Below are positions 1 through 7,478 of a DNA stretch of 7,478 bases, piece by piece. Numbering within the stretch: position 1 is the stretch's first letter; each line of letters starts with the position of its first letter. Both the position numbers and the translations under genes were made by a program. Source of the stretch: Nitrososphaerota archaeon. GTDB lineage: Archaea > Thermoproteota > Nitrososphaeria > Nitrososphaerales > UBA57. Under the pieces are notes generated by a model that was not told the DNA's origin, did not search any database, and was given only the letters and a program-made list of their open reading frames with translations. The stretch is taken from positions 1-7,478 of the forward strand of contig JACAFS010000045.1 in the NCBI GenBank assembly GCA_013378385.1, given 5' to 3'.

Positions 1-96
1 GACAAATGGGTTGAAATCATTGATGGCGTAGTCGAGAAGAACGGCTCATGGGAAACCAGAAAGAATTACTCACCAATCTTATTTGAGGAAGCGTAA
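1..96 (+). CDS. 3' end of an upstream gene (partial; product unknown)
   Basis: Frame 1 is open from the window edge to TAA at 94-96. My hand translation is DKWVEIIDGVVEKNGSWETRKNYSPILFEEA*. The stop overlaps the next start as TAATG, the same coupling style seen elsewhere in the cluster. Composition matches the GC-richer downstream gene. This ORF is not in the supplied track because it lacks a start in the window, and I recognise no family. Confidence 0.45.
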   Translation, partial: DKWVEIIDGVVEKNGSWETRKNYSPILFEEA

Positions 97-1355
97 TGAA
101 AAAAACAGTATTATTAATAGGTCCAGTAACTCGCAGAGCAGGATACGGAGAGCAAGCAAGGTTCGCCCTTCGCTCCATGCGAGCACACGAAGACAGGTTC
201 AACATCCTAATCCAAGACATCCCGTGGGGCAAGTCTGGACAAGTATCTGAGGACAACGAAGAACAAAGATACATCAGAGAAACTATTGCAAAAACACAGC
301 ACCACATACAAAATAAACTACCAGTAGACATAACTCTCCAAGTCACTATCCCAAACGAGTTCAAGAAACTCGCACCAGTGAATATTGGCTACACAGCAGG
401 TATCGAGACAACCAGAGTCGCACCTCAATGGATTCAGCAAGCGGAATTGATGGACAAAATCATCCTTGTCTCCAACCACTCAAAGAATGTCTATGAGAAA
501 ACATCATATGAAGGAACTAATAACCAAACAGGAGAGAAGGTTATTATTCAGACGCAGGTTCCAATGGAAGTTGTAAACTATCCAGTTCGAAGCCTTGAGG
601 TTGATGACTTGGGACTTGAACTCAAACACGACTTCAACTTCCTCACTATCGCCCAACTTGGACCAAGAAAGAATCTCGCCAACACTGTCAAGTGGTTCCT
701 CGAAGAGTTCCACGACGACGAAGTTGGACTAGTAGTAAAAACTAATATGATGAACTGTAGCACTGCCGACGGACAATACTGCCTACAGACTATGAAAGAA
801 ATGACAAAGCAGTTCCCAGACAGAAAATGCAGTGTCCATCTACTTCACGGAGACTTGTCTCTCGAACAAATGAATTCACTCTACACTCATCCAAAAATGA
901 AGGGTTTCGTCACTCTCACTCACGGCGAAGGATATGGACTCCCCATCTTCGAAGCAGCATACCACGGCTTGCCCGTAGTTGCCCCTGGTTGGAGCGGACA
1001 AAATGACTTCCTCTATGCCCCCGTCAAAAGCGGAAAACAAAAGAAAGCGAAGCTACGCCCCCTATTTGCAAAAGTTGACTACACCATAGGACAAGTTCCA
1101 CGACAGGCAGTTTGGGAGGGAGTAATCCAACAAGACGCTGGATGGTGCTACCCAACTGAAGACGGAGCAAAGACGACAATGAGAGATGTCTATGAAAATC
1201 ACTCAAAGTATGTTGGAATGTCTCGTAAACTTGAGAAGCATATATTGAAGAACTTTACTGAAGAGCAAATGACAACTAAGTTCGCCAACGCGGTTTATGA
1301 ACCAGATCCAGAATATATAGAGTGGATGAGACAATTGGACGAGATTAATGACTGA
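96..1355 (+). CDS. Glycosyltransferase, GT-B fold, family 4 / group 1 type
   Basis: 419-aa ORF with SD-like GAGGAAG at 84-90. The C-terminal half carries the Glycos_transf_1 signature ...FVTLTHGEGYGLPIFEAAYHGLPVVAPGWSGQNDF..., which is the E-x7-E nucleotide-sugar binding motif (EGYGLPIFE). It is preceded by ...NFLTIAQLGPRKNLANTVKWF..., typical of the start of the second Rossmann-like domain. The N-terminus LLIGPVTRRAGYGEQARFALRSM fits a GT4 N-terminal loop plus helix. Donor and acceptor cannot be read from the sequence. Confidence 0.8.
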   Translation: MKKTVLLIGPVTRRAGYGEQARFALRSMRAHEDRFNILIQDIPWGKSGQVSEDNEEQRYIRETIAKTQHHIQNKLPVDITLQVTIPNEFKKLAPVNIGYTAGIETTRVAPQWIQQAELMDKIILVSNHSKNVYEKTSYEGTNNQTGEKVIIQTQVPMEVVNYPVRSLEVDDLGLELKHDFNFLTIAQLGPRKNLANTVKWFLEEFHDDEVGLVVKTNMMNCSTADGQYCLQTMKEMTKQFPDRKCSVHLLHGDLSLEQMNSLYTHPKMKGFVTLTHGEGYGLPIFEAAYHGLPVVAPGWSGQNDFLYAPVKSGKQKKAKLRPLFAKVDYTIGQVPRQAVWEGVIQQDAGWCYPTEDGAKTTMRDVYENHSKYVGMSRKLEKHILKNFTEEQMTTKFANAVYEPDPEYIEWMRQLDEIND

Positions 1356-2199
1356 CGACATAATAATGGTAATGGATTTTTATTTCTCGGAAATAAAGGG
1401 AGGCGCGGAATTAAATGCCGAAACTCTTATTGACAGGTTTTCAGATGCAGGGTATAATATAAAAAAAGTTAAGTCAGCATCGTTGACTGTTGATTTTTTG
1501 AAACAAAACGTAGACAAAAAGTTTATATTCTCAAATTTTATTTTTGTAAGTAAGGATTGTAGGGAATACGCTATAAAAAACTTGCAATACGCCATATACG
1601 AACAAGATCATAAATATCTTAAAACTAGGAATCCTATTCAATATGTTGACTTTATCGCCCCAAAGGATCAGTTGGCAAATATTGAATTCTATAAAAATGC
1701 AGTAGTAGTGTTCTTTTTAACCAAGTTGGCTACAGATGTATTTGTTGCGAATACGAGATTACAAAATGTGTGTAATTTAAAATCCTCTGTGTGGAGAAAA
1801 GAAGAACTGGACTTCATGAAGACGATATGTGATACCGAAAAAATAAAAGAAAATGCAGTTCTTGATTCGAGCAACCCTATTAAAAAAAGAGGAAAGTGCA
1901 TTAGTTATTGTGAAAGAAATAATTTGGAATATGAATTAATAAAAGATGACGATTTTAAAACTTTCTTAAAAAAGATGTCTTCTTTTAAGAGACTTATTTT
2001 CTTCACAGGGCATTTAGAAACTTGTGCCAGAATTTTAGTGGAAGCTAAGATGCTAAACTTGGAAGTAACGTATCAAAAGAGGCTCATTGGAGCAGCTTCA
2101 GAAGAATGGTTTAGTCTATCTGGCATTGACATGATTGATAAGATGGAAGAGATAAGCTCACATATGCCCGATAAGGTTTTGGAGTATTTCAATGATTAA
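1348..2199 (+). CDS. Hypothetical protein; possible short, divergent GT-B (GT4-like) glycosyltransferase
   Basis: 283-aa ORF whose start overlaps the upstream stop (ATGACTGA). N-terminal ...FYFSEIKGGAELNAETLIDRFSDAGYNIKKV... resembles the GT4 G-G-x-E loop followed by a helix and strand. C-terminal ...RLIFFTGHLETCARILVEAKMLNLEV... resembles the E-x7-E region. It is short for a GT4. Alternative in-frame ATGs lie at 1366 and 1372. I am confident it is a real gene (length, coupling, no competing ORF), but the functional call is weak. Confidence 0.45.
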   Translation: MTDDIIMVMDFYFSEIKGGAELNAETLIDRFSDAGYNIKKVKSASLTVDFLKQNVDKKFIFSNFIFVSKDCREYAIKNLQYAIYEQDHKYLKTRNPIQYVDFIAPKDQLANIEFYKNAVVVFFLTKLATDVFVANTRLQNVCNLKSSVWRKEELDFMKTICDTEKIKENAVLDSSNPIKKRGKCISYCERNNLEYELIKDDDFKTFLKKMSSFKRLIFFTGHLETCARILVEAKMLNLEVTYQKRLIGAASEEWFSLSGIDMIDKMEEISSHMPDKVLEYFND

Positions 2200-3049
2200 G
2201 TGGAAAGACATACCTGTTAAGAGTAGAAAAGAAGTTTATAAAGAAATATCTCGCGACAAATCGCTTTTAATGAAGACGGCTATGTTCAAGGACATGTATA
2301 AAGGATTGGAATGTGTTGTCTTGAGTTGTGGCGTGAGCACCGCAGAGTTTCCAAAGGAAAAAATAGAGGAATTTTGTAAAGATAAACCAGTTTTTACAGT
2401 AAAGACTGCAACGACGAAATATTCAAATATATCAGATGTATGCATCACTAACTTATATGCAACTTGCGATTTCCCAAAAGAGAGGGATTATCTTATATTC
2501 GCAAGGCAAGAAATGCCATTAGGATACGACAATTGGATAAATCCAGATTTAGTAGATACGGAAACTCTCACGCAGATGTTTTCCAATGAGCCAAATATTC
2601 TGTGGGGATCTGACATATCTGCAAGACATTCTAACTCTGTCGTAAACGCTGATAGGTGGGATGAGAACTCTTTACAAAAAAATCCCTTTAATAGAATCAT
2701 AGGACCTGGTATAATGAATGACATGGTAGTTCCTATATTAGTTCATTGCGGAATTAGCAAAGTCAGTATCTTAGGATGGGATGGAGCTAATATTCAGAAT
2801 GACGGAAGTATCAAACATTTCTACGATGTAGAAACAGAATACAAGCCAGATATAAACTATGTTTCAAGTAAGTTCAATTTAAACAATCTAAAATCAGATA
2901 CCAATGAATGCGAGCAGCAAATAGCTAAGAAGGGCGAATTGTCGGTAATGCGTTACCTTAAAAGTAAAAATATAGAAATAGAGATTTTGACAAAGAATAG
3001 CAATATAAATGATAATATTAATAGGAACTACGTTCTTTATGGAGAATAG
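2192..3049 (+). CDS. Hypothetical protein; candidate DUF115/Maf-like or GT42-like nonulosonic-acid transferase
   Basis: 285-aa ORF with an ATGATTAA overlap with the upstream stop and GGAG about 8 nt upstream. Two motif blocks sit in the order and spacing seen in DUF115 (MptE/Maf) proteins and in CstII-type sialyltransferases. The first is an early strand-loop, GLECVVLSCGVSTAEFPKEKIEEF (compare xxIAGNGPSLxxI), followed by KPVFTVKTAT...SDVCITN. The second is a late block, IIGPGIMNDMVVPILVHCGISKVSILGWDGANI (compare small-residue loop, helix, LGxxxIxLxGxD). The C-terminus is Asn-rich and low in complexity. The gene sits directly upstream of a NeuB synthase and a cytidylyltransferase. The family assignment is by eye only. 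Confidence 0.4.
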   Translation: MIKWKDIPVKSRKEVYKEISRDKSLLMKTAMFKDMYKGLECVVLSCGVSTAEFPKEKIEEFCKDKPVFTVKTATTKYSNISDVCITNLYATCDFPKERDYLIFARQEMPLGYDNWINPDLVDTETLTQMFSNEPNILWGSDISARHSNSVVNADRWDENSLQKNPFNRIIGPGIMNDMVVPILVHCGISKVSILGWDGANIQNDGSIKHFYDVETEYKPDINYVSSKFNLNNLKSDTNECEQQIAKKGELSVMRYLKSKNIEIEILTKNSNINDNINRNYVLYGE

Positions 3050-3883
3050 GTGAAAAAGACATACATAATTGCAGAAATCGGAATAAACCACAACGGATGT
3101 TTAGAAACAGCTAAGAGGCTTATAGACGTAGCAGCAGTCTCAGGCTGCGATGCCGTTAAGTTTCAGAAGAGAAATCCAGACATTTGCGTCCCAGAACACC
3201 AGAAAGGTGTGATACGAGATACTCCGTGGGGCAAGATGACTTATCTCGAATACAAACATCGTGTAGAGTTCGGAAAGAAAGAATACGATGAAATAGACGC
3301 ATACTGTAAGCTCAGAGGCATTGCATGGTCTGCCTCTCCTTGGGATGTTGATAGTCTTAAGTTTCTAATGAAATATGATATTCCATTTATTAAAGTACCG
3401 TCAGCAATGATAACTAATAAAACTCTCATGTCAGCGGTAGCACAGACTGGTAAAAAGGTTATTTTCTCCGTCGGCATGAGCAATCTCAAAGAAATTGACA
3501 TCGCTGTCCAGCAAATGAGAGATAAAAAAGTAGACTTCAGTTTACTTCATTGTAATTCCACTTACCCAGCGCCTCTCTCCGAATTAAACCTGTCTTGTAT
3601 AGGAACTTTGAAGGAGCGCTATGGATGTGAAGTGGGATATAGTGGACATGAGTTTAGGCTCGGAACATCTGTGGCAGCAATATATCTCGGAGCCACTATA
3701 ATAGAAAGACATATAACTCTTGACAGAACTATGTGGGGTACGGATCAATTATCGTCAGTAGAACCTCAAGGATTGATTAAGTTGGTAAAAGGAATCAGAG
3801 AACTGGAACTTGCATATGGCGACGGAGTTAAAAGAGTAACAGAGAGTGAATTAGGTCCTAGAAAGAAACTAAGGGGATACTAA
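3050..3883 (+). CDS. neuB: NeuB-family nonulosonic/sialic acid synthase, catalytic TIM-barrel domain only (no SAF domain)
   Basis: 277 aa. The GTG start at 3050 is forced. An in-frame TAG sits at 3047-3049, the conserved strand YIIAEIGINHNG begins at codon 5, and the first internal Met is residue 62. GGAG lies at 3041-3044. NeuB motifs are present in order: IIAEIGINHNG, CDAVKFQK, FIKVPS, KVIFSVGMS, LLHCNSTYPAP, VGYSGHE, IIERHITLD. The protein ends ...DGVKRVTESELGPRKKLRGY*, in the linker where the SAF domain normally starts. The symbol is family level only; neuB, pseI and legI orthology is undetermined. Confidence 0.8.
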   Translation: MKKTYIIAEIGINHNGCLETAKRLIDVAAVSGCDAVKFQKRNPDICVPEHQKGVIRDTPWGKMTYLEYKHRVEFGKKEYDEIDAYCKLRGIAWSASPWDVDSLKFLMKYDIPFIKVPSAMITNKTLMSAVAQTGKKVIFSVGMSNLKEIDIAVQQMRDKKVDFSLLHCNSTYPAPLSELNLSCIGTLKERYGCEVGYSGHEFRLGTSVAAIYLGATIIERHITLDRTMWGTDQLSSVEPQGLIKLVKGIRELELAYGDGVKRVTESELGPRKKLRGY

Positions 3884-4566
3884 TGAAAGCTCCAGAAGAA
3901 GTAGCAGTTTTAATCCAAGCTAGATTATCCAGTCAGCGATGTCCAAGAAAGATGATACGTCAATTCGCAGATACAACATTGATGGATCTCTGCATTCAAA
4001 AATTAGTAGAATCTAATATTCCAAACGAGAATATATGGATTTCAGTGCATGAACCAGAACTGGTTGAATTGGTAAAGAAATATCCAGTTAATCTATTTCA
4101 TCGATCAGAGAAATCAGCAATGTCTGAGGGCACCCCTTTGACTGAAATTTATGATTGGTGGGATAAACTACCTCACAAGTACGTGGTATTAGTTAATGCC
4201 TGTGCGCCTTTTCTTAAAACTGAGACAATTGAGAGATTCTTTAGTGATTATTGTTCAACTGAAAATAATGGCATGTTTGGCGTAGTTTCAAAGAAAAACT
4301 ATTTTTGGTCTCATGACGGAGAATTCTTAACCCCTATGAATGAGGTAATAATGAATACTAAAACCGCCAATCCTGTTATGGAGGCTGCACACTGCTTGTA
4401 CGCTAGTTCGCAGGCTTCAATTGGTCAAGGAATATGGATGGGTAGATTTAATGTACCAGGAGAAATTAAACTATGGCATATGGCTGAAGAAGAAATATTC
4501 GACATTGACTATGAGTGGGAATTCAAAATGTATGAAGCGCTATATAAAAGTTTAAATAACACTTGA
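3883..4566 (+). CDS. Cytidylyltransferase-family protein (CTP_transf_3; candidate CMP-nonulosonate synthetase), divergent
   Basis: 227 aa with a TAATG overlap with the upstream stop and AGGGG about 8 nt upstream. N-terminal VAVLIQARLSSQRCPRKMI matches the (I/V)xAR-x2-S-x-R-x-P-x-K phosphate-binding loop of the NeuA/KdsB/PseF family. YVVLVNACAPFL sits where the family has the (Q)xT(S)P or QGDEP block. The C-terminal IFDIDYEWEFKMYEALYK matches the common xDIDtxeDfxxaexl ending. The context next to a NeuB gene fits this call. Confidence 0.6.
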   Translation: MKAPEEVAVLIQARLSSQRCPRKMIRQFADTTLMDLCIQKLVESNIPNENIWISVHEPELVELVKKYPVNLFHRSEKSAMSEGTPLTEIYDWWDKLPHKYVVLVNACAPFLKTETIERFFSDYCSTENNGMFGVVSKKNYFWSHDGEFLTPMNEVIMNTKTANPVMEAAHCLYASSQASIGQGIWMGRFNVPGEIKLWHMAEEEIFDIDYEWEFKMYEALYKSLNNT

Positions 4567-4591
4567 TAAGCGATAAAAATCGTGTTATTAT
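4563..4591 (+). promoter_or_regulatory. Candidate sigma70-type promoter with extended -10, driving the downstream gene block
   Basis: This lies in the only intergenic gap of the window. TTGATA at 4563-4568 is the -35 (5/6 to TTGACA) and overlaps the TGA stop at 4564-4566. After a 17-nt spacer comes TGtTATTAT at 4583-4591, i.e. an extended -10 TG plus TATTAT (5/6 to TATAAT). The downstream SD GGAG at 4615-4618 sits 7 nt before ATG 4626. An alternative AT-rich element, TATAAAAA, lies at 4598-4605. Confidence 0.4.
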
Positions 4592-4625
4592 ATTGTATAT
4601 AAAAACTGGATGACGGAGCGGACTC

Positions 4626-5618
4626 ATGAATAGCTTTATAAGTGGAAGAAAATTCTTTATTACTGGCGGAACTGGGACACTGGGCAAAGCCTTGGTAAAA
4701 AGAATCCTTCATAACGATGGGCAAGTAGTTGTCTACAGTAGAGATGAAGGAAAACAAGCACTTAACTTCGGACAGAATAAAGACGTCAAGTGTATTATTG
4801 GAGACGTTAGGGATTATAGTAAGTTATCCGTCTCTATATTTCGCGAAAAGCCCGACATTGTAATACACACGGCAGCGCTGAAAAGAATTGATGACATGGA
4901 GATACACCCAGACGAGTGTATAAAAACAAACATAACTGGCTCCGAAAATGTTGCAAGAGCTTGTCTCGAAAATCATATTGATAAGTGCATTCTTATATCA
5001 ACAGATAAAGCCTGTCAACCCGTGAATGTTTATGGATCTTCAAAGTTCATTGCTGAAAGGCTCTTTACAAATTATGACTATAATAGTAATCATACAATAT
5101 TCTCATCAGTAAGGTATGGTAATGTCATATGTAGTAGAGGCTCATTTATCCCTTTATGGCTAGGAATGTTGAATGAAGGGAAAAACATTAGTGTCACATC
5201 GTTGGAAATGACTAGATTCTTGTTTACTATTGAAGATGCAGTGGATACTGTTTTAGGTTCAGTGTATCATTCTGAGGGAGGAGAAGTATTCATTCCTCAA
5301 ATCAAATCTTTCGATATGAGTACAATTATAAGCGCCATCGGAACCATAACTGCACAAGATGTTGGTTATGATTTAATTGGATTGAGACCTGGCGAGAAGT
5401 TGCATGAAGACATGTTGGCTGAAACTGAACTACCTTTTACATTCAAGGTGCCAGATATAAATTTGCTCTGTGTCCGCCCTCAGTATACCGAGAGGAAGCA
5501 CAACACTGAGTGGGAGAAATATAATGGTGAGCATTTCAATTCCGCATTGCACGTTTCAAATGAAGTCAACCAATTGATAAAGCTTATCAAAAAAGGAAGT
5601 ATAGAAAGTGGTTCTTGA
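4626..5618 (+). CDS. pseB: UDP-N-acetylglucosamine 4,6-dehydratase, PseB/FlaA1-type (Polysacc_synt_2 short-form SDR)
   Basis: 330 aa. Near-continuous motif agreement with PseB/FlaA1 as I recall it: FFITGGTGTLGK, VYSRDEGKQ, IIGDVRD, IHTAALKRI, DECIKTNITGSENVARAC, LISTDKACQPVNVYGSSK (TDK plus YxxxK retained), VRYGNVICSRGSFIPLW, MTRFLFT, GGEVFIPQIKS, GLRPGEKLHEDM. The symbol reflects family resemblance. The true pathway role is uncertain because the adjacent gene is a reductase. Confidence 0.85.
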   Translation: MNSFISGRKFFITGGTGTLGKALVKRILHNDGQVVVYSRDEGKQALNFGQNKDVKCIIGDVRDYSKLSVSIFREKPDIVIHTAALKRIDDMEIHPDECIKTNITGSENVARACLENHIDKCILISTDKACQPVNVYGSSKFIAERLFTNYDYNSNHTIFSSVRYGNVICSRGSFIPLWLGMLNEGKNISVTSLEMTRFLFTIEDAVDTVLGSVYHSEGGEVFIPQIKSFDMSTIISAIGTITAQDVGYDLIGLRPGEKLHEDMLAETELPFTFKVPDINLLCVRPQYTERKHNTEWEKYNGEHFNSALHVSNEVNQLIKLIKKGSIESGS

Positions 5619-6417
5619 TAAAACTCTCTTAATCACTGGAACAACTGGAATGCTAGGTAAGCAGTTTTTAGATTTTTTTAAAGATAAATGCAACAATGTA
5701 TACACTTTGAATAGAGTGGATGGTGACTTGCTAGATTTTGATTTTGTTAAAGAATTCGCCTTAAAATATAACCCTGATATAATAATTCACTGCATTGCGA
5801 ATACAAACTTGAAGTATTGCGAAGAGCAAGAAAAAGATACACTATTGCTACATTGTGGATTAACTCATTGTTTATCATCACTTGATTGTAAGATGGTATA
5901 CATATCAACTAGTTCTGCGCAAGATCCACATAATTTTTACGACAAAACAAAACTCCTCGGAGAGCAAATTTGTTTACTAAACAATAAAAATAATTTAGTA
6001 ATAAGAACAAATATATACGGAATCAATTCTAGTTCTGGAAAATCATTATTCGAATGGGCTTATAACAGTCTGACTGAAGACATACAAATAACGGGGTATT
6101 CTGACGTTTACTTTAATGCAGTTTACACTAAGCAGCTTGTAAGAACGGTATTCGACTTAATCAATAAAGAACACACAGGGATAATCAACATCGCTGGTGA
6201 TTATACTGTTAGTAAATTTAAGTTTCTTCAAAAGGTGTGCGAGATTTTTGAATTCGACAAAAACCTTCTGATTAAAGGCACTCAACCTGCAAATGCTTTA
6301 GTAAAGAGAAGTAAGAATATAGCATTAAATGTTAATGAAATAAAACAAAAATACAATATTAGGTTACACTTAGAAGAGGGGCTGAGTGAACTTAAAAACG
6401 ACTTGGAGATACAATGA
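5608..6417 (+). CDS. RmlD-like NAD(P)H-dependent nucleotide-sugar 4-ketoreductase (SDR)
   Basis: 269 aa. The GTG start at 5608 is the first start candidate after the in-frame TAG at 5602-5604. The first ATG would remove the Rossmann motif LLITGTTGMLGK. AGGAAG lies at 5594-5599. The start overlaps the dehydratase 3' end by 11 nt. The layout is RmlD_sub_bind-like: a short N-terminal Rossmann domain, NPDIIIHCIANTN, YISTSS, FYDKTKLLGEQ (YxxxK), LVIRTNIYG, KSLFEWA, NAVYTKQL and GIINIAGD. Confidence 0.65.
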   Translation: MVLDKTLLITGTTGMLGKQFLDFFKDKCNNVYTLNRVDGDLLDFDFVKEFALKYNPDIIIHCIANTNLKYCEEQEKDTLLLHCGLTHCLSSLDCKMVYISTSSAQDPHNFYDKTKLLGEQICLLNNKNNLVIRTNIYGINSSSGKSLFEWAYNSLTEDIQITGYSDVYFNAVYTKQLVRTVFDLINKEHTGIINIAGDYTVSKFKFLQKVCEIFEFDKNLLIKGTQPANALVKRSKNIALNVNEIKQKYNIRLHLEEGLSELKNDLEIQ

Positions 6418-7478
6418 AGGAAATAACCATAGACAATAAGAAAATAGGTCCGAACCAACCGACATATTTTATAGCAGATATTGCCGCAAATCATGATGGT
6501 GATTTAGAAAGAGCAAAGATGCTATGCAAGCTTGCAAAGGACAGCGGAGCAGATGCAGTAAAATTTCAACACCATAACTGTAAAAAATACGTTAGCGATT
6601 ATGGATTTAAAAATTTAGGAGGCAAATTCAGTCATCAATCTTCATGGAAAGAATCAATCTATGATACATATAAATCTGCTGAAGTGCCTTCATCTTGGAC
6701 AACTGAATTAAAGAAATATTGTAACGAAATGGGAATAACGATGTTCTCAACGCCTTACGATTTAGAAATGGTGGAACATTTAAATAATTTTATTGATTGT
6801 TATAAAATAGGATCAGGAGATCTGGCATTTGATTTAATGATAGAAACGGTTGCTAAGACGAAAAAGCCAGTTATGATATCAACTGGTGCCTCTACCTTAG
6901 ATGAGGTTGAAAACGCTGTTGAGATACTGAGGAAAAATAATACAGATATTGTCCTAATGCAATGTAACACAAACTACACAGGGAATGATGAAAACTTCGA
7001 TTTCATCAATTTAAACGTTTTAAATAAATACAAAAGAATGTTTCCAGATGTTATTATTGGGTTGAGCGATCATACTCATGGCTCAGTTACTACCTTGGGT
7101 GCTGTGGCTTTAGGGGCAAGAGTTGTTGAAAAACACTTTACAGATGACAATAGCCGTCCTGGACCAGATCACCCCTTTTCAATGAATCCTAAATCATGGA
7201 GAGAAATGGTTAATCATACGAGAATATTAGAAAGATCTATGGGCACTGATGTCAAGAAAGTTGAAGAAAACGAAAAAGAAACAGTGGTGCTGCAACGCAG
7301 AGCATTGCGACTTGTCAAGGATATGAAAAAAGGCGAGCTAATTTCTGTGTCTGATTTTGAATTTCAAAGACCTTGCCCTGAAGATGCCTTATCTATAAAC
7401 AAATTTAAAGCAATTATAAATAAAAAAATAAATAGAGATATTCCTTCTGGAGATTATCTTAAAGCTGGAGATATTGAC
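6414..7478 (+). CDS. neuB: NeuB-family nonulosonic acid synthase with C-terminal SAF domain (3' end runs off the window)
   Basis: Absent from the ORF track because it has no stop in the window. I translated it by hand from ATG 6414 (ATGA overlap with the upstream stop, GGAG at 6404-6407). It stays open for 355 codons to the window end. NeuB motifs: TYFIADIAANHDGDLERAK, ADAVKFQHH, YKIGSGD, KPVMISTGAS, LMQCNTNYTG, IGLSDHTHG, VVEKHFTDD...GPDHPFSMNP. These are followed by a SAF-like tail, VVLQRRALRLVKDMKKGELISVSDFEFQRPCP...INRDIPSGDYLKAGDID. It is probably only a few codons short of complete. The symbol is family level only. Confidence 0.85.
   Translation, partial: MKEITIDNKKIGPNQPTYFIADIAANHDGDLERAKMLCKLAKDSGADAVKFQHHNCKKYVSDYGFKNLGGKFSHQSSWKESIYDTYKSAEVPSSWTTELKKYCNEMGITMFSTPYDLEMVEHLNNFIDCYKIGSGDLAFDLMIETVAKTKKPVMISTGASTLDEVENAVEILRKNNTDIVLMQCNTNYTGNDENFDFINLNVLNKYKRMFPDVIIGLSDHTHGSVTTLGAVALGARVVEKHFTDDNSRPGPDHPFSMNPKSWREMVNHTRILERSMGTDVKKVEENEKETVVLQRRALRLVKDMKKGELISVSDFEFQRPCPEDALSINKFKAIINKKINRDIPSGDYLKAGDID

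What the first reader, a model, noticed from the sequence alone, without database searches (positions are those of the whole stretch)
96..7478. Compact nonulosonic-acid biosynthesis, activation and transfer cassette with non-canonical gene content
In 7.4 kb on one strand there are three putative transferases (GT4, GT-B-like orphan, DUF115/GT42-like orphan), two NeuB-family synthases, one cytidylyltransferase, one PseB-type dehydratase and one RmlD-like reductase. The established routes differ from this. Pseudaminic acid uses PseB, PseC (aminotransferase), PseH (N-acetyltransferase), PseG (UDP-sugar hydrolase), PseI and PseF. Legionaminic acid uses an analogous six-step route. Neu5Ac uses NeuC, NeuB and NeuA. 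The window shows no PLP aminotransferase, acetyltransferase or hydrolase/2-epimerase. It also shows no Wzx/Wzy/ABC exporter, no lipid-carrier priming transferase and no obvious acceptor such as flagellin. The extreme packing (overlapping stops and starts) and the mosaic composition fit an accessory or viral auxiliary module rather than a standard O-antigen or capsule locus. My hypothesis is that this self-contained module makes a CMP-activated sialic-acid-like sugar, possibly an atypical one, and attaches it to a protein or glycan target.
Basis: partly seen in the sequence, partly recalled or inferred. Interest (0 to 1): 0.75.

Follow-up and report, generated by a model that had tools for sequence, protein, structure and literature searches.

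The report
Phage sialic-acid-like sugar island, swapped cassette
This is part of a roughly 13-16 kb sugar-making and sugar-attaching gene island in an uncultured marine phage; one swappable block appears to replace the usual amination step of pseudaminic-acid synthesis with a reduction, which would yield an unusual sialic-acid-like sugar.

Summary
Eight tightly packed +strand genes encode two GT-B/GT4-like transferases, an MptE/DUF115-like transferase, a short NeuB, a cytidylyltransferase, a PseB-type dehydratase, an RmlD-like reductase and a long NeuB+SAF.

The cassette is not self-contained. Bases 1-96 are the end of another glycosyltransferase. A 99.96%-identical contig continues with GNAT, PIG-L deacetylase, formyltransferase, a second MptE-like gene, a 288-aa protein with no family match and the start of a further gene; an FkbM methyltransferase and a small HAD-like protein follow in close relatives. 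No aminotransferase or PseG/NeuC was found.

It is viral. 69 IMG/VR contigs carry related islands, and the nuclease-GT-GT anchor is syntenic with Flavobacterium phage immuto.

A sister strain (89% nt identity up to the last base of PseB) carries DegT-NeuB-formyltransferase-PIG-L where the window has reductase-NeuB-GNAT-PIG-L-formyltransferase. p8-type NeuBs always follow the reductase. They have Gly/Thr where aminotransferase-linked NeuBs have the Pse-type Phe.

Best reading: a hypervariable phage glycosylation island making two CMP-nonulosonic acids. One is probably a 7-hydroxy, 9-deoxy type. Chemistry and acceptor are inferred.

This is a new variant of a known kind, of moderate to high interest.

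The parts
1..96 (+). C-terminal 31 codons and stop codon of an upstream glycosyltransferase ('GTup', about 418-500 aa in relatives). It is the first gene of the island, and its stop overlaps the p1 start by 1 nt.
   Evidence: Translation. The same C-terminus (57-67% id) ends a 431-aa GT in L047 and a 418-aa Glycos_transf_1 protein in sister contigs L155-L159. A family representative is 48% identical to Flavobacterium phage immuto gp181.
96..1355 (+). p1, a GT4-like (GT-B, E-x7-E) glycosyltransferase of 419 aa. It is the conserved anchor gene of the island.
   Evidence: PHROG 2170 glycosyltransferase 9.4e-16. Pfam GT1/GT4 hits are weak. The motif EGYGLPIFE is read from the translation. 30% identity over full length to immuto gp180, E 9e-57. 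Present in 50 of the fetched loci.
1348..2199 (+). p2, a compact GT-B fold protein of 283 aa with a GT4-type E-x7-E motif (E224...E232). It is probably a glycosyltransferase. A PseG-like UDP-sugar hydrolase role is not excluded.
   Evidence: No Pfam, NCBIfam, PHROG or PDB sequence match. AF2 pLDDT 94.4. Foldseek PDB probability 1.0, E about 1e-6, to GtfC, TarM, BshA and HepE, and also NeuC at 1e-4. 111 homologue clusters, all environmental; the only named one is a 'Prokaryotic dsDNA virus sp.' record. It is inserted between p1 and p3, which are fused in other loci.
2192..3049 (+). p3, a divergent MptE-like/DUF115 (Maf/sialyltransferase-like fold) protein of 285 aa. It is the putative CMP-nonulosonic-acid transferase.
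   Evidence: AF2 pLDDT 90.9. The PDB top hit is M. jannaschii MptE 8sd5, followed by GT29 sialyltransferases and Maf 5mu5. BFVD hits to phage 'MptE-like' proteins reach E 2e-8. HHalign to the p12 MptE-like family gives 96.3%, E 1.5e-9. The domain is fused to the C-terminus of p1-like GT4 in about 20 viral loci.
3050..3883 (+). p4, a short NeuB-family synthase of 277 aa (GTG start) with no SAF domain. It belongs active-site class 'A/S'.
   Evidence: Pfam NeuB 1.2e-74. It scores below both the NeuB and PseI equivalog cut-offs. Its best solved relative is the 290-aa short NeuB 6NCS, 2.6e-42. It is 67-78% identical across many viral loci. The Ala/Ser signature is shared by 35 of 35 short NeuBs.
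3883..4566 (+). p5, a CMP-sugar-type cytidylyltransferase of 227 aa. It is the only one found in the window plus its downstream extension.
   Evidence: CTP_transf_3 2e-12. PseF TIGR03584 scores only 36 bits against a cut-off of 205.7. Best PDB match is mouse CMP-Neu5Ac synthetase 1QWJ, 2e-6. In strain L004 this gene alone drops to 71% nt identity while p1-p4 stay at 99-100%.
4567..4625 (.). The only intergenic gap (59 nt). It separates the GT/short-NeuB/CMP block from the PseB block.
   Evidence: ORF coordinates. A sigma-70-like match (TTGATA-17-TATTAT) lies at 4563-4591. This is a consensus match only and is not evidence of function.
4626..5618 (+). p6, a PseB-type (inverting) UDP-GlcNAc 4,6-dehydratase of 330 aa. 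It is shared by both alternative downstream cassettes.
   Evidence: Polysacc_synt_2 1.3e-76. PseB TIGR03589 2.6e-79, at 266 bits below the 407.75 cut-off. Best PDB match is H. pylori FlaA1/PseB 2GN4, 1.9e-62, with STDKA and YGxxK conserved. 95% nt identity to the sister strain, in which it is followed by DegT.
5608..6417 (+). p7, an RmlD-like NAD(P)H sugar reductase of 269 aa (GTG start). It is the first gene of the variable cassette and occupies the position of the PseC aminotransferase.
   Evidence: RmlD_sub_bind 6.8e-23; rmlD TIGR01214 4e-23. PDB matches are RmlD enzymes such as 2GGS, 4.6e-16. TGxxGxxG, Ser99, Tyr110 and Lys114 are invariant in the family. Nucleotide similarity to the sister strain stops at 5606.
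6414..7478 (+). p8, a long NeuB+SAF synthase (356 aa; the last codon and stop lie just beyond the window). It belongs to active-site class 'G/T' and is strictly coupled to the reductase.
   Evidence: NeuB 7e-74, SAF 2.6e-6. It scores below the NeuB (283.9 vs 399.65) and PseI (248.6 vs 340.25) cut-offs. It is equally similar to NmNeuB and CjPseI, at about 1e-49 each. 11 of 11 viral homologues at >=45% id directly follow an RmlD-like gene, against 0 of 45 other long NeuBs. It has Gly/Thr where the DegT-linked NeuBs have Phe.
5607..7478 (+). Left part of a swappable cassette of about 3.9 kb. In the composite of window plus L001 it spans 5607-9503 and carries p7, p8, GNAT, PIG-L, the formyltransferase and the first 170 nt of the second MptE-like gene.
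   Evidence: blastn of the composite against sister contig L155 gives 88.9% identity over 1-5606, no similarity over 5607-9503, and 84.6% identity over 9504-11337. The sister strain carries DegT-NeuB-Formyl_trans_N-Formyl_trans_C_2-PIG-L-66aa at this site.

Best explanation
The window is the 5' two-thirds of a glycosylation island, about 13-16 kb long, in a large uncultured marine tailed phage related to Flavobacterium phage immuto.

Shown: the island starts with two conserved GT4-like transferases (the upstream one and p1). It carries a variable sugar toolkit, all on one strand, and none of its 13 complete and 2 partial proteins examined (the upstream GT only as its last 31 residues) has a membrane-spanning segment.

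Inferred mechanism:
1. The short NeuB p4 and the cytidylyltransferase p5 make a first CMP-nonulosonic acid. The precursor is probably a host-derived hexose or hexosamine, possibly phosphorylated, because a small HAD-like protein (a predicted sugar-phosphate phosphatase) belongs to the island in relatives.
2. PseB (p6) converts UDP-GlcNAc to the 4-keto-6-deoxy intermediate. In this strain the RmlD-like enzyme p7 reduces the 4-keto group instead of a PseC aminating it. After loss of UDP, the dedicated NeuB p8 condenses the 6-deoxy-N-acetylhexosamine with PEP. The product would be a 5-acylamido-7-hydroxy-3,5,9-trideoxy-nonulosonic acid.
3. The PIG-L, formyltransferase and GNAT genes just downstream re-tailor the N-acyl group, and p5 activates the product.
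4. The MptE-like proteins (p3, plus a second one downstream) transfer the CMP-sugars, and the GT-B enzymes (p1, p2) build the underlying glycan. The acceptor is a soluble cytoplasmic one, most likely a virion protein.

The reductase cassette is one allele of a recombining hotspot. A sister strain carries the ordinary aminotransferase/Pse-type cassette at the same site.
For: Enzyme identities. Folds of p2 and p3.

Island extent: L001 is 99.96% identical to the window and continues downstream with GNAT, PIG-L, Formyl_trans_N, MptE-like, a 288-aa protein with no Pfam match, and the first 94 codons of a further gene. The sister strain and a 72%-related phage show that gene to be an FkbM-type methyltransferase, followed by the small HAD-like gene.

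Viral origin:
- 69 IMG/VR contigs of up to 167 kb carry related islands.
- Flanking genes are PhoH, ClpP, PD-(D/E)XK nuclease, RecA-like, DnaB and RNR.
- The nuclease-GT-GT order is syntenic with cultured phage immuto, at 48% and 30% identity.
- A p2 homologue carries the name 'Prokaryotic dsDNA virus sp.'.

Reductase-for-aminotransferase logic:
- The sister strain is colinear at 88.9% nt identity up to the last base of PseB. It then carries DegT-NeuB-Fmt-PIG-L in place of RmlD-NeuB-GNAT-PIG-L-Fmt, and becomes colinear again.
- 11 of 11 p8-type NeuBs directly follow an RmlD-like gene. None of the 45 other long NeuBs does, and 28 of those 45 directly follow DegT.
- At the position said to discriminate Pse from Neu/Leg synthases (PMC7371886), all 29 DegT-linked NeuBs have Phe and all 12 reductase-linked ones have Gly/Thr.
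- The cassette occurs without any DegT in 10 of 11 viral loci.
- It also occurs in Bacteroidota and other genomes as PseB-(PseF)-RmlD-like-NeuB-GNAT.

Chemical precedent: the F. nucleatum 25586 O-chain contains both 6-deoxy-L-AltNAc and a 3,5,9-trideoxy-nonulosonic acid (ref. 4 of PMC7371886).

Soluble acceptor: no TM-like segment in any island protein. The MptE-like domain is fused to GT4 in about 20 loci.
Against: - No product was measured. The C4 reduction and the stereochemistry are inferred from family membership and gene replacement only.
- No UDP-releasing enzyme (PseG/NeuC-like) was identified. Only p2, of unknown activity, has a compatible fold.
- A GNAT and a formyltransferase downstream suggest free amino groups to acylate. 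The model explains this only by invoking PIG-L deacetylation.
- Only one cytidylyltransferase was found for two synthases.
- The precursor of p4 is unknown. In some loci the short NeuB sits next to PseB with no other synthase, so it may use a PseB-derived sugar instead.
- No structural gene or acceptor lies in any fetched flank, so virion glycosylation is a guess by analogy.
- Host assignment (Bacteroidota) is weak. The upstream GT is equally similar to one in a Microcystis phage.
Confidence: 0.55

Rival explanations
1. It is an ordinary pseudaminic-acid (or legionaminic-acid) pathway whose missing steps are supplied by the host or by distal phage genes. Those missing steps are the aminotransferase and the UDP-sugar hydrolase. 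On this view p7 has an accessory role, for example a second SDR step as in the seven-enzyme Bacillus thuringiensis Pse route (recalled from memory).
For: - p6 is clearly PseB-like.
- A PseH-like GNAT follows p8. The bacterial counterpart's GNAT hits PseH TIGR03585 at 1.4e-12, below cut-off.
- The formyltransferase and GNAT imply amino groups to acylate.
- The bacterial counterparts carry a bona fide PseB and PseF.
Against: - The same PseB (95% nt identity) works with a DegT directly downstream in the sister strain, so it needs no helper SDR.
- The reductase and the aminotransferase are mutually exclusive at one site and each comes with its own NeuB clade.
- p8-type NeuBs lack the Pse-type Phe and score below the PseI cut-off.
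- 10 of 11 viral loci with the cassette have no DegT within +/-10 kb.
Confidence: 0.17
2. The biosynthetic reading is right, but the target is the host cell rather than the virion. The phage would remodel host surface glycans or glycoproteins (LPS, capsule, S-layer, gliding or flagellar proteins) during infection, for example to block superinfection or change adsorption. Alternatively it would feed CMP-sugars into host pathways.
For: - Phage-encoded glycosyltransferases that modify host O-antigen are well established (general knowledge).
- Bacterial Maf/DUF115 enzymes glycosylate host flagellins (general knowledge).
- The island lies among early/replication-type genes rather than structural genes.
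- Bacteroidota genomes carry the same reductase cassette.
Against: - There is no flippase, polymerase, priming transferase or any membrane protein in the island.
- An island of 13-16 kb with strain-level cassette switching is costly for a lytic phage if used only for exclusion.
- None of this is decisive.
Confidence: 0.18
3. The island hypermodifies phage DNA, with sugars attached to modified bases, rather than modifying proteins.
For: - p2's fold matches include T4 alpha-glucosyltransferase and a phage HY126 glycosyltransferase.
- The island's small HAD-like protein is closest to PDB 9IQW at 3e-10. Its entry code is close to that of the HY126 glycosyltransferase 9IQZ, and HY126 uses a HAD phosphatase for DNA arabinosylation (PMC13326640). 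The link between 9IQW and HY126 is my inference.
- The island sits next to a PD-(D/E)XK nuclease and replication genes.
Against: - No pyrimidine hydroxymethylase, hydroxylase, TET or thymidylate-synthase-like gene lies in any fetched flank.
- The GT-B matches are generic.
- MptE/Maf-like and CMP-dependent enzymes are not known to act on DNA.
- I know of no report of nonulosonic acids on DNA.
Confidence: 0.05
4. The sequence is cellular, a bacterial flagellin or surface-glycan locus misfiled as viral, and not part of a phage.
For: - All enzymes have bacterial homologues.
- The window itself contains no phage hallmark gene.
- The reductase cassette exists in bacterial MAGs.
Against: - Related islands sit on 69 IMG/VR contigs and on contigs of 84 kb (fetched, L160) and up to 198 kb (listed), with uniformly one-strand genes.
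- The anchor is syntenic with a cultured 160-kb myovirus.
- Bacterial relatives of p7 and p8 are only 25-53% identical, against 54-87% in viral contigs.
- PHROG and BFVD give viral matches.
Confidence: 0.03

Closest known systems
Pseudaminic acid pathway PseB-PseC-PseH-PseG-PseI-PseF (Campylobacter jejuni / Helicobacter pylori)
   Same: - It starts from a PseB-type inverting UDP-GlcNAc 4,6-dehydratase (best PDB match H. pylori FlaA1/PseB).
- It ends with a NeuB-family synthase and a CMP-transferase.
- A PseH-like GNAT lies just downstream.
- The sister strain carries the PseB-PseC-NeuB(Phe-type) arrangement at the same site.
   Different: - No PseC is present; an RmlD-like reductase takes its place.
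- No PseG is present.
- The synthase is below the PseI cut-off and lacks the Pse-type Phe.
- The CMP-transferase is far below the PseF cut-off.
- PIG-L and a formyltransferase are added.
- The locus is encoded by a phage.
Flagellin glycosylation islands with Maf/DUF115 (MptE-like) nonulosonic-acid transferases
   Same: NulO biosynthesis genes are clustered with MptE-like putative transferases (p3, and a second one downstream). All proteins are soluble and cytoplasmic.
   Different: - There is no flagellin or flagellar gene.
- p3 is too divergent for Pfam PF01973 and is often fused to a GT4 domain.
- The context is viral.
Glycan gene cluster of Flavobacterium phage vB_FspM_immuto (NC_055915, gp181-gp169)
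   Same: The anchor has the same order, PD-(D/E)XK nuclease, GT, GT (48% and 30% identity), followed by a variable sugar-gene block on one strand.
   Different: The immuto block is annotated with aminotransferases, GT2, a methyltransferase and an epimerase, and no gene there is annotated as NeuB or a CMP-transferase. Its function is equally untested.
[quoted passage not shown]
   Same: It is the only reported 7-hydroxy, 9-deoxy bacterial NulO (PMC7371886). Its co-occurring 6-deoxy-L-AltNAc is the sugar expected from PseB plus a 4-reductase, which is the logic proposed for p6-p7-p8.
   Different: The link is chemical only. I know of no described biosynthetic genes for that sugar, and no Fusobacterium sequence was compared here. 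The stereochemistry of the phage product is unknown.
Virus-encoded glycosylation machineries of giant viruses (Mimivirus fibrils, chlorovirus capsid glycans) and glycosylated mycobacteriophage virions (recalled from memory)
   Same: In each case a virus carries its own rare-sugar synthesis and glycosyltransferase genes, which are used on virion proteins.
   Different: The sugars and enzymes differ. No virion glycan has been shown for this phage lineage.
Kdn/Neu5Ac 9-phosphate synthase + HAD phosphatase + CMP-synthetase routes (e.g. Bacteroides thetaiotaomicron Kdn; recalled from memory)
   Same: The short NeuB, the CMP-transferase and a small HAD-like protein recur together in the viral islands. 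In several loci the HAD gene is directly adjacent to the short NeuB.
   Different: The HAD protein is only about 100 aa and has no Pfam match. The substrate is untested. The HAD gene is outside the window.

Membership tests
Pseudaminic acid pathway (pse) | PseB: inverting UDP-GlcNAc 4,6-dehydratase | tested here: inconclusive
   p6 hits TIGR03589 at 2.6e-79 but scores 266.5 bits against a cut-off of 407.75. Best PDB match is H. pylori PseB 2GN4, 1.9e-62, with STDKA/YxxxK conserved. Family-level membership is clear; equivalog status was not reached.
Pseudaminic acid pathway (pse) | PseC: PLP-dependent DegT-type aminotransferase acting on the 4-keto intermediate | tested here: not met
   No DegT_DnrJ_EryC1 hit in any window protein, in the 3.9 kb downstream, or upstream. 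A DegT gene occupies p7's position in the sister strain.
Pseudaminic acid pathway (pse) | PseH N-acetyltransferase | tested here: inconclusive
   Not in the window. A GNAT (Acetyltransf_3, 2.9e-17) lies directly downstream in L001. Its bacterial counterpart hits PseH at 48 bits against a cut-off of 93.
Pseudaminic acid pathway (pse) | PseG UDP-sugar hydrolase | tested here: not met
   No PseG or NeuC model hit for any protein. p2 has a GT-B fold of similar size but carries a GT4 E-x7-E motif and has no sequence match.
Pseudaminic acid pathway (pse) | PseI synthase (equivalog score; Phe at the C2-specificity position) | tested here: not met
   p8 scores 248.6 bits and p4 195.8 bits against a cut-off of 340.25. 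p8 has Gly and p4 has Ala where CjPseI and all 29 DegT-linked viral NeuBs have Phe (criterion from PMC7371886).
Pseudaminic acid pathway (pse) | PseF CMP-pseudaminic acid synthetase | tested here: not met
   p5 hits TIGR03584 at 36 bits against a cut-off of 205.7. Only the general CTP_transf_3 family is met, at 2e-12.
Neu5Ac pathway (NeuC-NeuB-NeuA) | NeuC hydrolysing 2-epimerase plus a NeuB equivalog | tested here: not met
   No NeuC/Epimerase_2 hit. p4 scores 259.6 bits and p8 283.9 bits against the NeuB_NnaB cut-off of 399.65.
Legionaminic acid pathway (leg) | LegB dehydratase, LegC aminotransferase, LegG hydrolysing epimerase | tested here: not met
   LegB TIGR04180 scores only 49 bits against a cut-off of 475 for p6. 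No aminotransferase or epimerase was found.
NeuB superfamily (PF03102) | NeuB TIM-barrel domain above the Pfam gathering score | tested here: met
   p4 scores 251 bits and p8 249 bits against a cut-off of 22.1. Only p8 has the SAF domain.
MptE-like / DUF115 (Maf-type transferases, PF01973) | Sequence match to PF01973, and an MptE/sialyltransferase-like fold with GxGPS and GxD motifs | tested here: inconclusive
   p3 has no PF01973 hit. However, HHalign to the p12 family gives 96.3%, E 1.5e-9; p12 itself hits PF01973 at 2.5e-6, below cut-off. The fold matches MptE 8sd5, Maf 5mu5 and GT29 enzymes and phage MptE-like proteins at E 2e-8. The family consensus motifs SCGPS and GWD are visible; the window's own p3 has SCGVS at the first motif. 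Transferase activity is untested.
GT4-type GT-B glycosyltransferases | GT-B fold with a C-terminal E-x7-E motif | tested here: met
   p2 has a GT-B fold at probability 1.0, and E224-x7-E232 is invariant in its family. p1 has a PHROG GT hit at 9e-16, an EGYGLPIFE motif (translation), and homology to the annotated immuto GT. Pfam scores are below cut-off for both.
Immuto-like phage glycan island | Gene order PD-(D/E)XK nuclease, GT, GT, then a variable sugar block on a large phage genome | tested here: met
   Sister contigs L155-L157 and L160 show PDDEXK-GT-p1 directly upstream of p2. The same order is found in NC_055915, with 48% and 30% protein identity.

The most novel reading that the evidence does not exclude
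A widespread group of large marine phages synthesises a nonulosonic acid class with no characterised pathway: 5-acylamido-7-hydroxy-3,5,9-trideoxy, 'fusaminic-like'. The route is a PseB, 4-reductase and dedicated-NeuB branch. The phages attach the sugar to their own virions with GT4-MptE transferases. Near-identical strains switch between this sugar and a Pse-type sugar by cassette exchange, which would be a viral equivalent of serotype switching.
Probability: 0.3. Interest if true: 0.8.

Novelty: new variant of a known kind. Interest (0 to 1): 0.62.

Why it matters
Nonulosonic acids are key recognition and evasion sugars on bacterial surfaces, and their known routes all aminate C4 of the 6-deoxy intermediate. 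Three things would follow if this reading holds.

- A reductase branch with its own synthase clade, present in phages and in Bacteroidota genomes, would give a genetic handle on the only known 7-hydroxy-9-deoxy class, which currently has no characterised pathway.
- Phages that carry 13-16 kb of such chemistry and swap cassettes between 89%-identical strains would have surface or target glycans under diversifying selection. That bears on host range, grazing or immune-like recognition, and how marine viral 'strains' are defined.
- The p6-p7-p8-p5 set is small enough to test directly in vitro.

Tried and rejected
- Megablast of the whole window against 50,697 phage records found no match, so there is no close cultured relative.
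- The search for related loci with p3 in IMG/VR found nothing by single-sequence patterns. PseB was used as the query instead.
- Profile searches of the p2 and p3 families against PDB sequences found nothing meaningful.
- tRNA and Rfam scans of the window were empty.
- The promoter/terminator scan was not above shuffles in a meaningful way. A perfect sigma-70 consensus at 1430-1458 lies inside the p2 coding sequence and is not conserved in the 72%-related phage, so I treated it as chance.
- Five literature searches found no paper describing phage-encoded nonulosonic-acid synthesis in the held library. This is absence from that library only.
- I considered p2 as PseG. I could neither confirm nor exclude it, and the E-x7-E motif favours a transferase.
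- I considered p4+p5 as a Kdn route. It stays a lead only (HAD adjacency).
- I considered a FnlA/FnlB/FnlC-type L-FucNAc route for p6/p7. I rejected it as the main reading because p6 keeps the PseB-type YxxxK (FnlA/CapE enzymes have Met there, from memory), FnlA scores lower, there is no FnlC, and p7 is always followed by a NeuB.

Full report

Yes. The window holds eight co-directional ORFs with almost no non-coding DNA. The junctions overlap by 1, 8, 8, 0, 1, 11 and 4 nt, and the single gap is 59 nt (4567-4625).

| Gene | Coordinates | Assignment and score |
|---|---|---|
| p4 | 3050-3883 | NeuB, 1.2e-74, no SAF domain |
| p8 | 6414->7478 | NeuB 7e-74 plus SAF 2.6e-6 |
| p5 | 3883-4566 | CTP_transf_3, 2e-12 |
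| p6 | 4626-5618 | Polysacc_synt_2 1.3e-76 and PseB 2.6e-79; best solved relative H. pylori PseB/FlaA1 at 1.9e-62 |
| p7 | 5608-6417 | RmlD_sub_bind 6.8e-23, with an invariant Ser/Tyr/Lys triad in its family |
| p1 | 96-1355 | weak in Pfam, but matches a PHROG glycosyltransferase family (9e-16) and has an E-x7-E motif |

The two 'orphans' have no sequence match anywhere curated. Structure prediction on alignments of environmental homologues was confident.

- p2 (pLDDT 94) is a compact GT-B fold. It matches GT4-type enzymes at Foldseek probability 1.0 and has an invariant E224-x7-E232.
- p3 (pLDDT 91) resembles MptE, GT29 sialyltransferases and the Maf glycosyltransferase.
- p3 also resembles many phage proteins annotated MptE-like, down to E 2e-8.
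- A profile-profile comparison links the p3 family to the Pfam-supported MptE-like family of the island at 96% probability.

The reported mosaic composition is real. GC is 0.44 in p1, 0.32 in p2, 0.41 in p4 and 0.32 in p7. No tRNA or Rfam family is present.

**2. The cassette is larger than the window.**

Bases 1-96 encode the C-terminus of another glycosyltransferase.

Contig L001 is 99.96% identical to window 804-7478. It continues with these genes:

- a GNAT (Acetyltransf_3, 2.9e-17);
- a PIG-L deacetylase (2.1e-22);
- a formyltransferase (4.3e-16);
- a second MptE-like protein (2.5e-6, below cut-off);
- a 288-aa protein without a family hit;
- the first 94 codons of a further gene, which also has no family hit.

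In the sister strain and in a 72%-related phage the gene at that last position is an FkbM-type methyltransferase, and the island ends with a small HAD-like protein of about 100 aa.

No aminotransferase and no PseG/NeuC-type hydrolase appear anywhere in the roughly 11.3 kb reconstructed.

**3. It is viral.**

- The PseB homologue recovers 69 IMG/VR contigs of up to 167 kb with related islands.
- Genes on those contigs are almost all on one strand.
- Flanking genes include PhoH, ClpP, a PD-(D/E)XK nuclease, RecA-like, DnaB-like and RNR genes.
- The order nuclease, GT, GT(p1) recurs in Flavobacterium phage vB_FspM_immuto, a cultured 160-kb myovirus. Protein identities are 48% and 30%, and a different sugar-gene block follows there.
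- Homologues of p2, p3 and p7 are environmental (mostly marine), on contigs of up to 198 kb. One is named 'Prokaryotic dsDNA virus sp.'.
- None of the 15 island proteins or fragments has a TM-like segment. No Wzx/Wzy or priming transferase is present.

**4. Architecture.**

Clustering all ORFs of the fetched loci shows a conserved anchor (upstream GT + p1) followed by a shuffled toolkit.

The p3 domain is fused to the C-terminus of the p1-like GT4 in about 20 loci. In the window's lineage the two are split and p2 is inserted between them.

The short NeuB p4 is the most conserved enzyme of the toolkit, at 67-78% identity. It travels with a CMP-transferase and, in many loci, with the small HAD-like protein, which is sometimes directly adjacent. 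The HAD protein's only solved relative is a 134-aa protein, 9IQW (3e-10).

The window therefore holds parts of two modules: p4-p5, and p6-p7-p8.

**5. The key result: a natural cassette swap.**

Tara contigs L155-L159 share a p2 that is 99% identical to the window's. Against a composite of window + L001, L155 behaves as follows:

| Composite coordinates | Identity to L155 |
|---|---|
| 1-5606 | 88.9% nt, colinear; ends at the last base before p7 |
| 5607-9503 | no detectable similarity |
| 9504-11337 | 84.6% nt, colinear again |

In the gap the sister strain carries DegT aminotransferase, NeuB+SAF, Formyl_trans_N, Formyl_trans_C_2, PIG-L and a 66-aa ORF. The window strain carries RmlD-like reductase, NeuB+SAF, GNAT, PIG-L and formyltransferase.

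The same PseB (95% nt identity) thus feeds either an aminotransferase or a reductase.

A second recombination trace was seen. Strain L004 is 99-100% identical over p1-p4 but only 71% identical over p5.

**6. The reductase cassette is a distinct, recurrent unit.**

- Among viral loci, which were selected by PseB and not by p7, 11 of 11 NeuBs with >=45% identity to p8 directly follow an RmlD-like gene.
- None of the 45 other long NeuBs does, and 28 of those 45 directly follow DegT.
- Ten of the 11 loci have no DegT within +/-10 kb.
- Minimal versions exist: PseB-reductase-NeuB-CMP in L030, and the same plus a GNAT in L032.

A published comparison (PMC7371886) names two active-site positions as discriminating Pse-type synthases (Phe; Ser) from Neu/Leg-type ones (Gly; Asn/Tyr). 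At those positions:

| NeuB class | Residues | Count |
|---|---|---|
| DegT-linked viral NeuBs | Phe at the first position | 29 of 29 |
| Reductase-linked NeuBs, including p8 | Gly/Thr | 12 of 12 |
| Short NeuBs, including p4 | Ala/Ser | 35 of 35 |

p8 is equally distant from N. meningitidis NeuB and C. jejuni PseI and scores below both NCBIfam cut-offs.

The same arrangement exists in cellular genomes: PseB, (PseF), RmlD-like, NeuB at 47-53% identity to p8, then GNAT, with no DegT detected. It was found in Chitinophagaceae, Flavobacteriaceae and Cryomorphaceae MAGs and a Chitinophaga isolate. It was also found in a Firmicutes MAG, and without the GNAT in a Woesearchaeota MAG. These loci were selected by p7 similarity, so they show existence, not association.

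**7. Mechanism.**

Shown: gene identities, folds, synteny, the swap, the co-occurrence and the residue signatures.

Inferred:
1. PseB makes the UDP-4-keto-6-deoxy intermediate.
2. p7 reduces C4 where PseC would aminate it.
3. UDP is removed by an unidentified activity.
4. p8 condenses the 6-deoxy-HexNAc with PEP. The product would be a 5-acylamido-7-hydroxy-3,5,9-trideoxy-nonulosonic acid, with a predicted mass of 293.27 Da for the N-acetyl form.
5. PIG-L, the formyltransferase and the GNAT exchange or add acyl groups.
6. p5 activates the sugar.
7. The MptE-like proteins transfer the CMP-sugars onto a glycan started by the GT-B enzymes.

There is chemical precedent. The single reported bacterial trideoxy-NulO, from the F. 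nucleatum 25586 O-chain, occurs together with 6-deoxy-L-AltNAc (ref. 4 of PMC7371886). That is the sugar expected from PseB plus a 4-reductase.

The acceptor is unknown. I favour virion proteins because the machinery is soluble, the locus is viral, and giant viruses and some mycobacteriophages offer an analogy (recalled from memory). Host-surface remodelling is a serious rival. DNA hypermodification is a minor one: GT-B and HAD resemblances to phage DNA-glycosylation enzymes exist, but no base-modifying enzyme was seen.

**8. Weak points.**

- No UDP-releasing enzyme was identified.
- There is one CMP-transferase for two synthases.
- The downstream GNAT and formyltransferase hint at amines the model does not supply, except through PIG-L deacetylation.
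- The substrate of p4 is unknown.
- The host is uncertain. Bacteroidota is suggested by immuto and by the bacterial counterparts, but a Microcystis phage GT is equally similar.
- Literature searches in the held library found no description of phage NulO synthesis. That does not prove there is none.

**9. Verdict.**

This is a phage-borne, recombining nonulosonic-acid glycosylation island. Its window-specific novelty is a reductase-for-aminotransferase cassette with its own NeuB clade.

It is not a member of the pse, leg or neu pathways as defined, because defining enzymes were tested and found absent. It works like a branch of the pse route.

- Novelty: new variant of a known kind.
- Interest: 0.62.

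Noticed in passing
window 3883-4566 vs L004 4121-4804: Strain L004 is 99-100% nt identical to the window over p1-p4. It drops to 71% over the CMP-transferase gene p5 and 85% over the following spacer. This is a second recombination breakpoint, at the p4/p5 junction.
   Followed up: partly
L047 7974-9998 and about 20 other loci (e.g. L012, L013, L046, L052): The p1-like GT4 and the p3-like MptE domain form one fused protein of 673-687 aa. In the window lineage they are separate genes with p2 inserted between them.
   Followed up: yes
L160 5562-8332 (between short NeuB and CMP-transferase): A 72%-related phage has four extra genes at the junction that is a 1-nt overlap in the window. They are two adh_short SDRs, an AP_endonuc_2 (sugar isomerase-like TIM barrel) protein and a cupin. 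They may supply or tailor the precursor for the short NeuB.
   Followed up: no
L044 6678-6974; L155 14537-; L160 16142-16453: A protein of about 100 aa with a DxDxT motif (HAD-like) and no Pfam match closes the island in relatives and recurs in 34 loci. Its only solved relative is PDB 9IQW (3e-10). Its entry code is close to that of the phage HY126 glycosyltransferase 9IQZ, from a phage known for DNA arabinosylation.
   Followed up: partly
window 1430-1458 (+): A perfect sigma-70 consensus (TTGACA-17-TATAAT, 12 of 12) lies inside the p2 coding sequence. It is conserved only in near-identical strains and not in L160, so it is probably chance.
   Followed up: partly
window 4563-4591 (+): A promoter-like match with an extended -10 (TTGATA-17-TATTAT) lies in the only intergenic gap, just upstream of PseB. 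It is a consensus match only, and Bacteroidota promoters would differ.
   Followed up: no
L075 6974-11198; L093 6264-10475; also L076, L079, L094, L100, L077: Bacterial and archaeal genomes carry an uncharacterised PseB-(PseF)-RmlD-like-NeuB-GNAT cluster in which no aminotransferase was detected. They include Chitinophagaceae, Flavobacteriaceae, Cryomorphaceae, a Firmicutes MAG and a Woesearchaeota MAG; the Woesearchaeota locus (L077) showed no GNAT hit. The NeuB there is below both the NeuB and PseI cut-offs.
   Followed up: partly
L001 9391-10257 (downstream of window): A 288-aa protein has no family hit. It contains an HxD...H pattern (FHVDK...GSHR) and distant similarity to the island's PhyH-like dioxygenases, so it may be a sugar hydroxylase.
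   Followed up: no
L023, L060, L020, L056 (IMG/VR loci): Some islands have only HAD, short NeuB, PseB, CMP-transferase and MptE-like genes, with no second synthase, reductase or aminotransferase. The short NeuB might therefore use a PseB-derived sugar rather than a host hexose.
   Followed up: no
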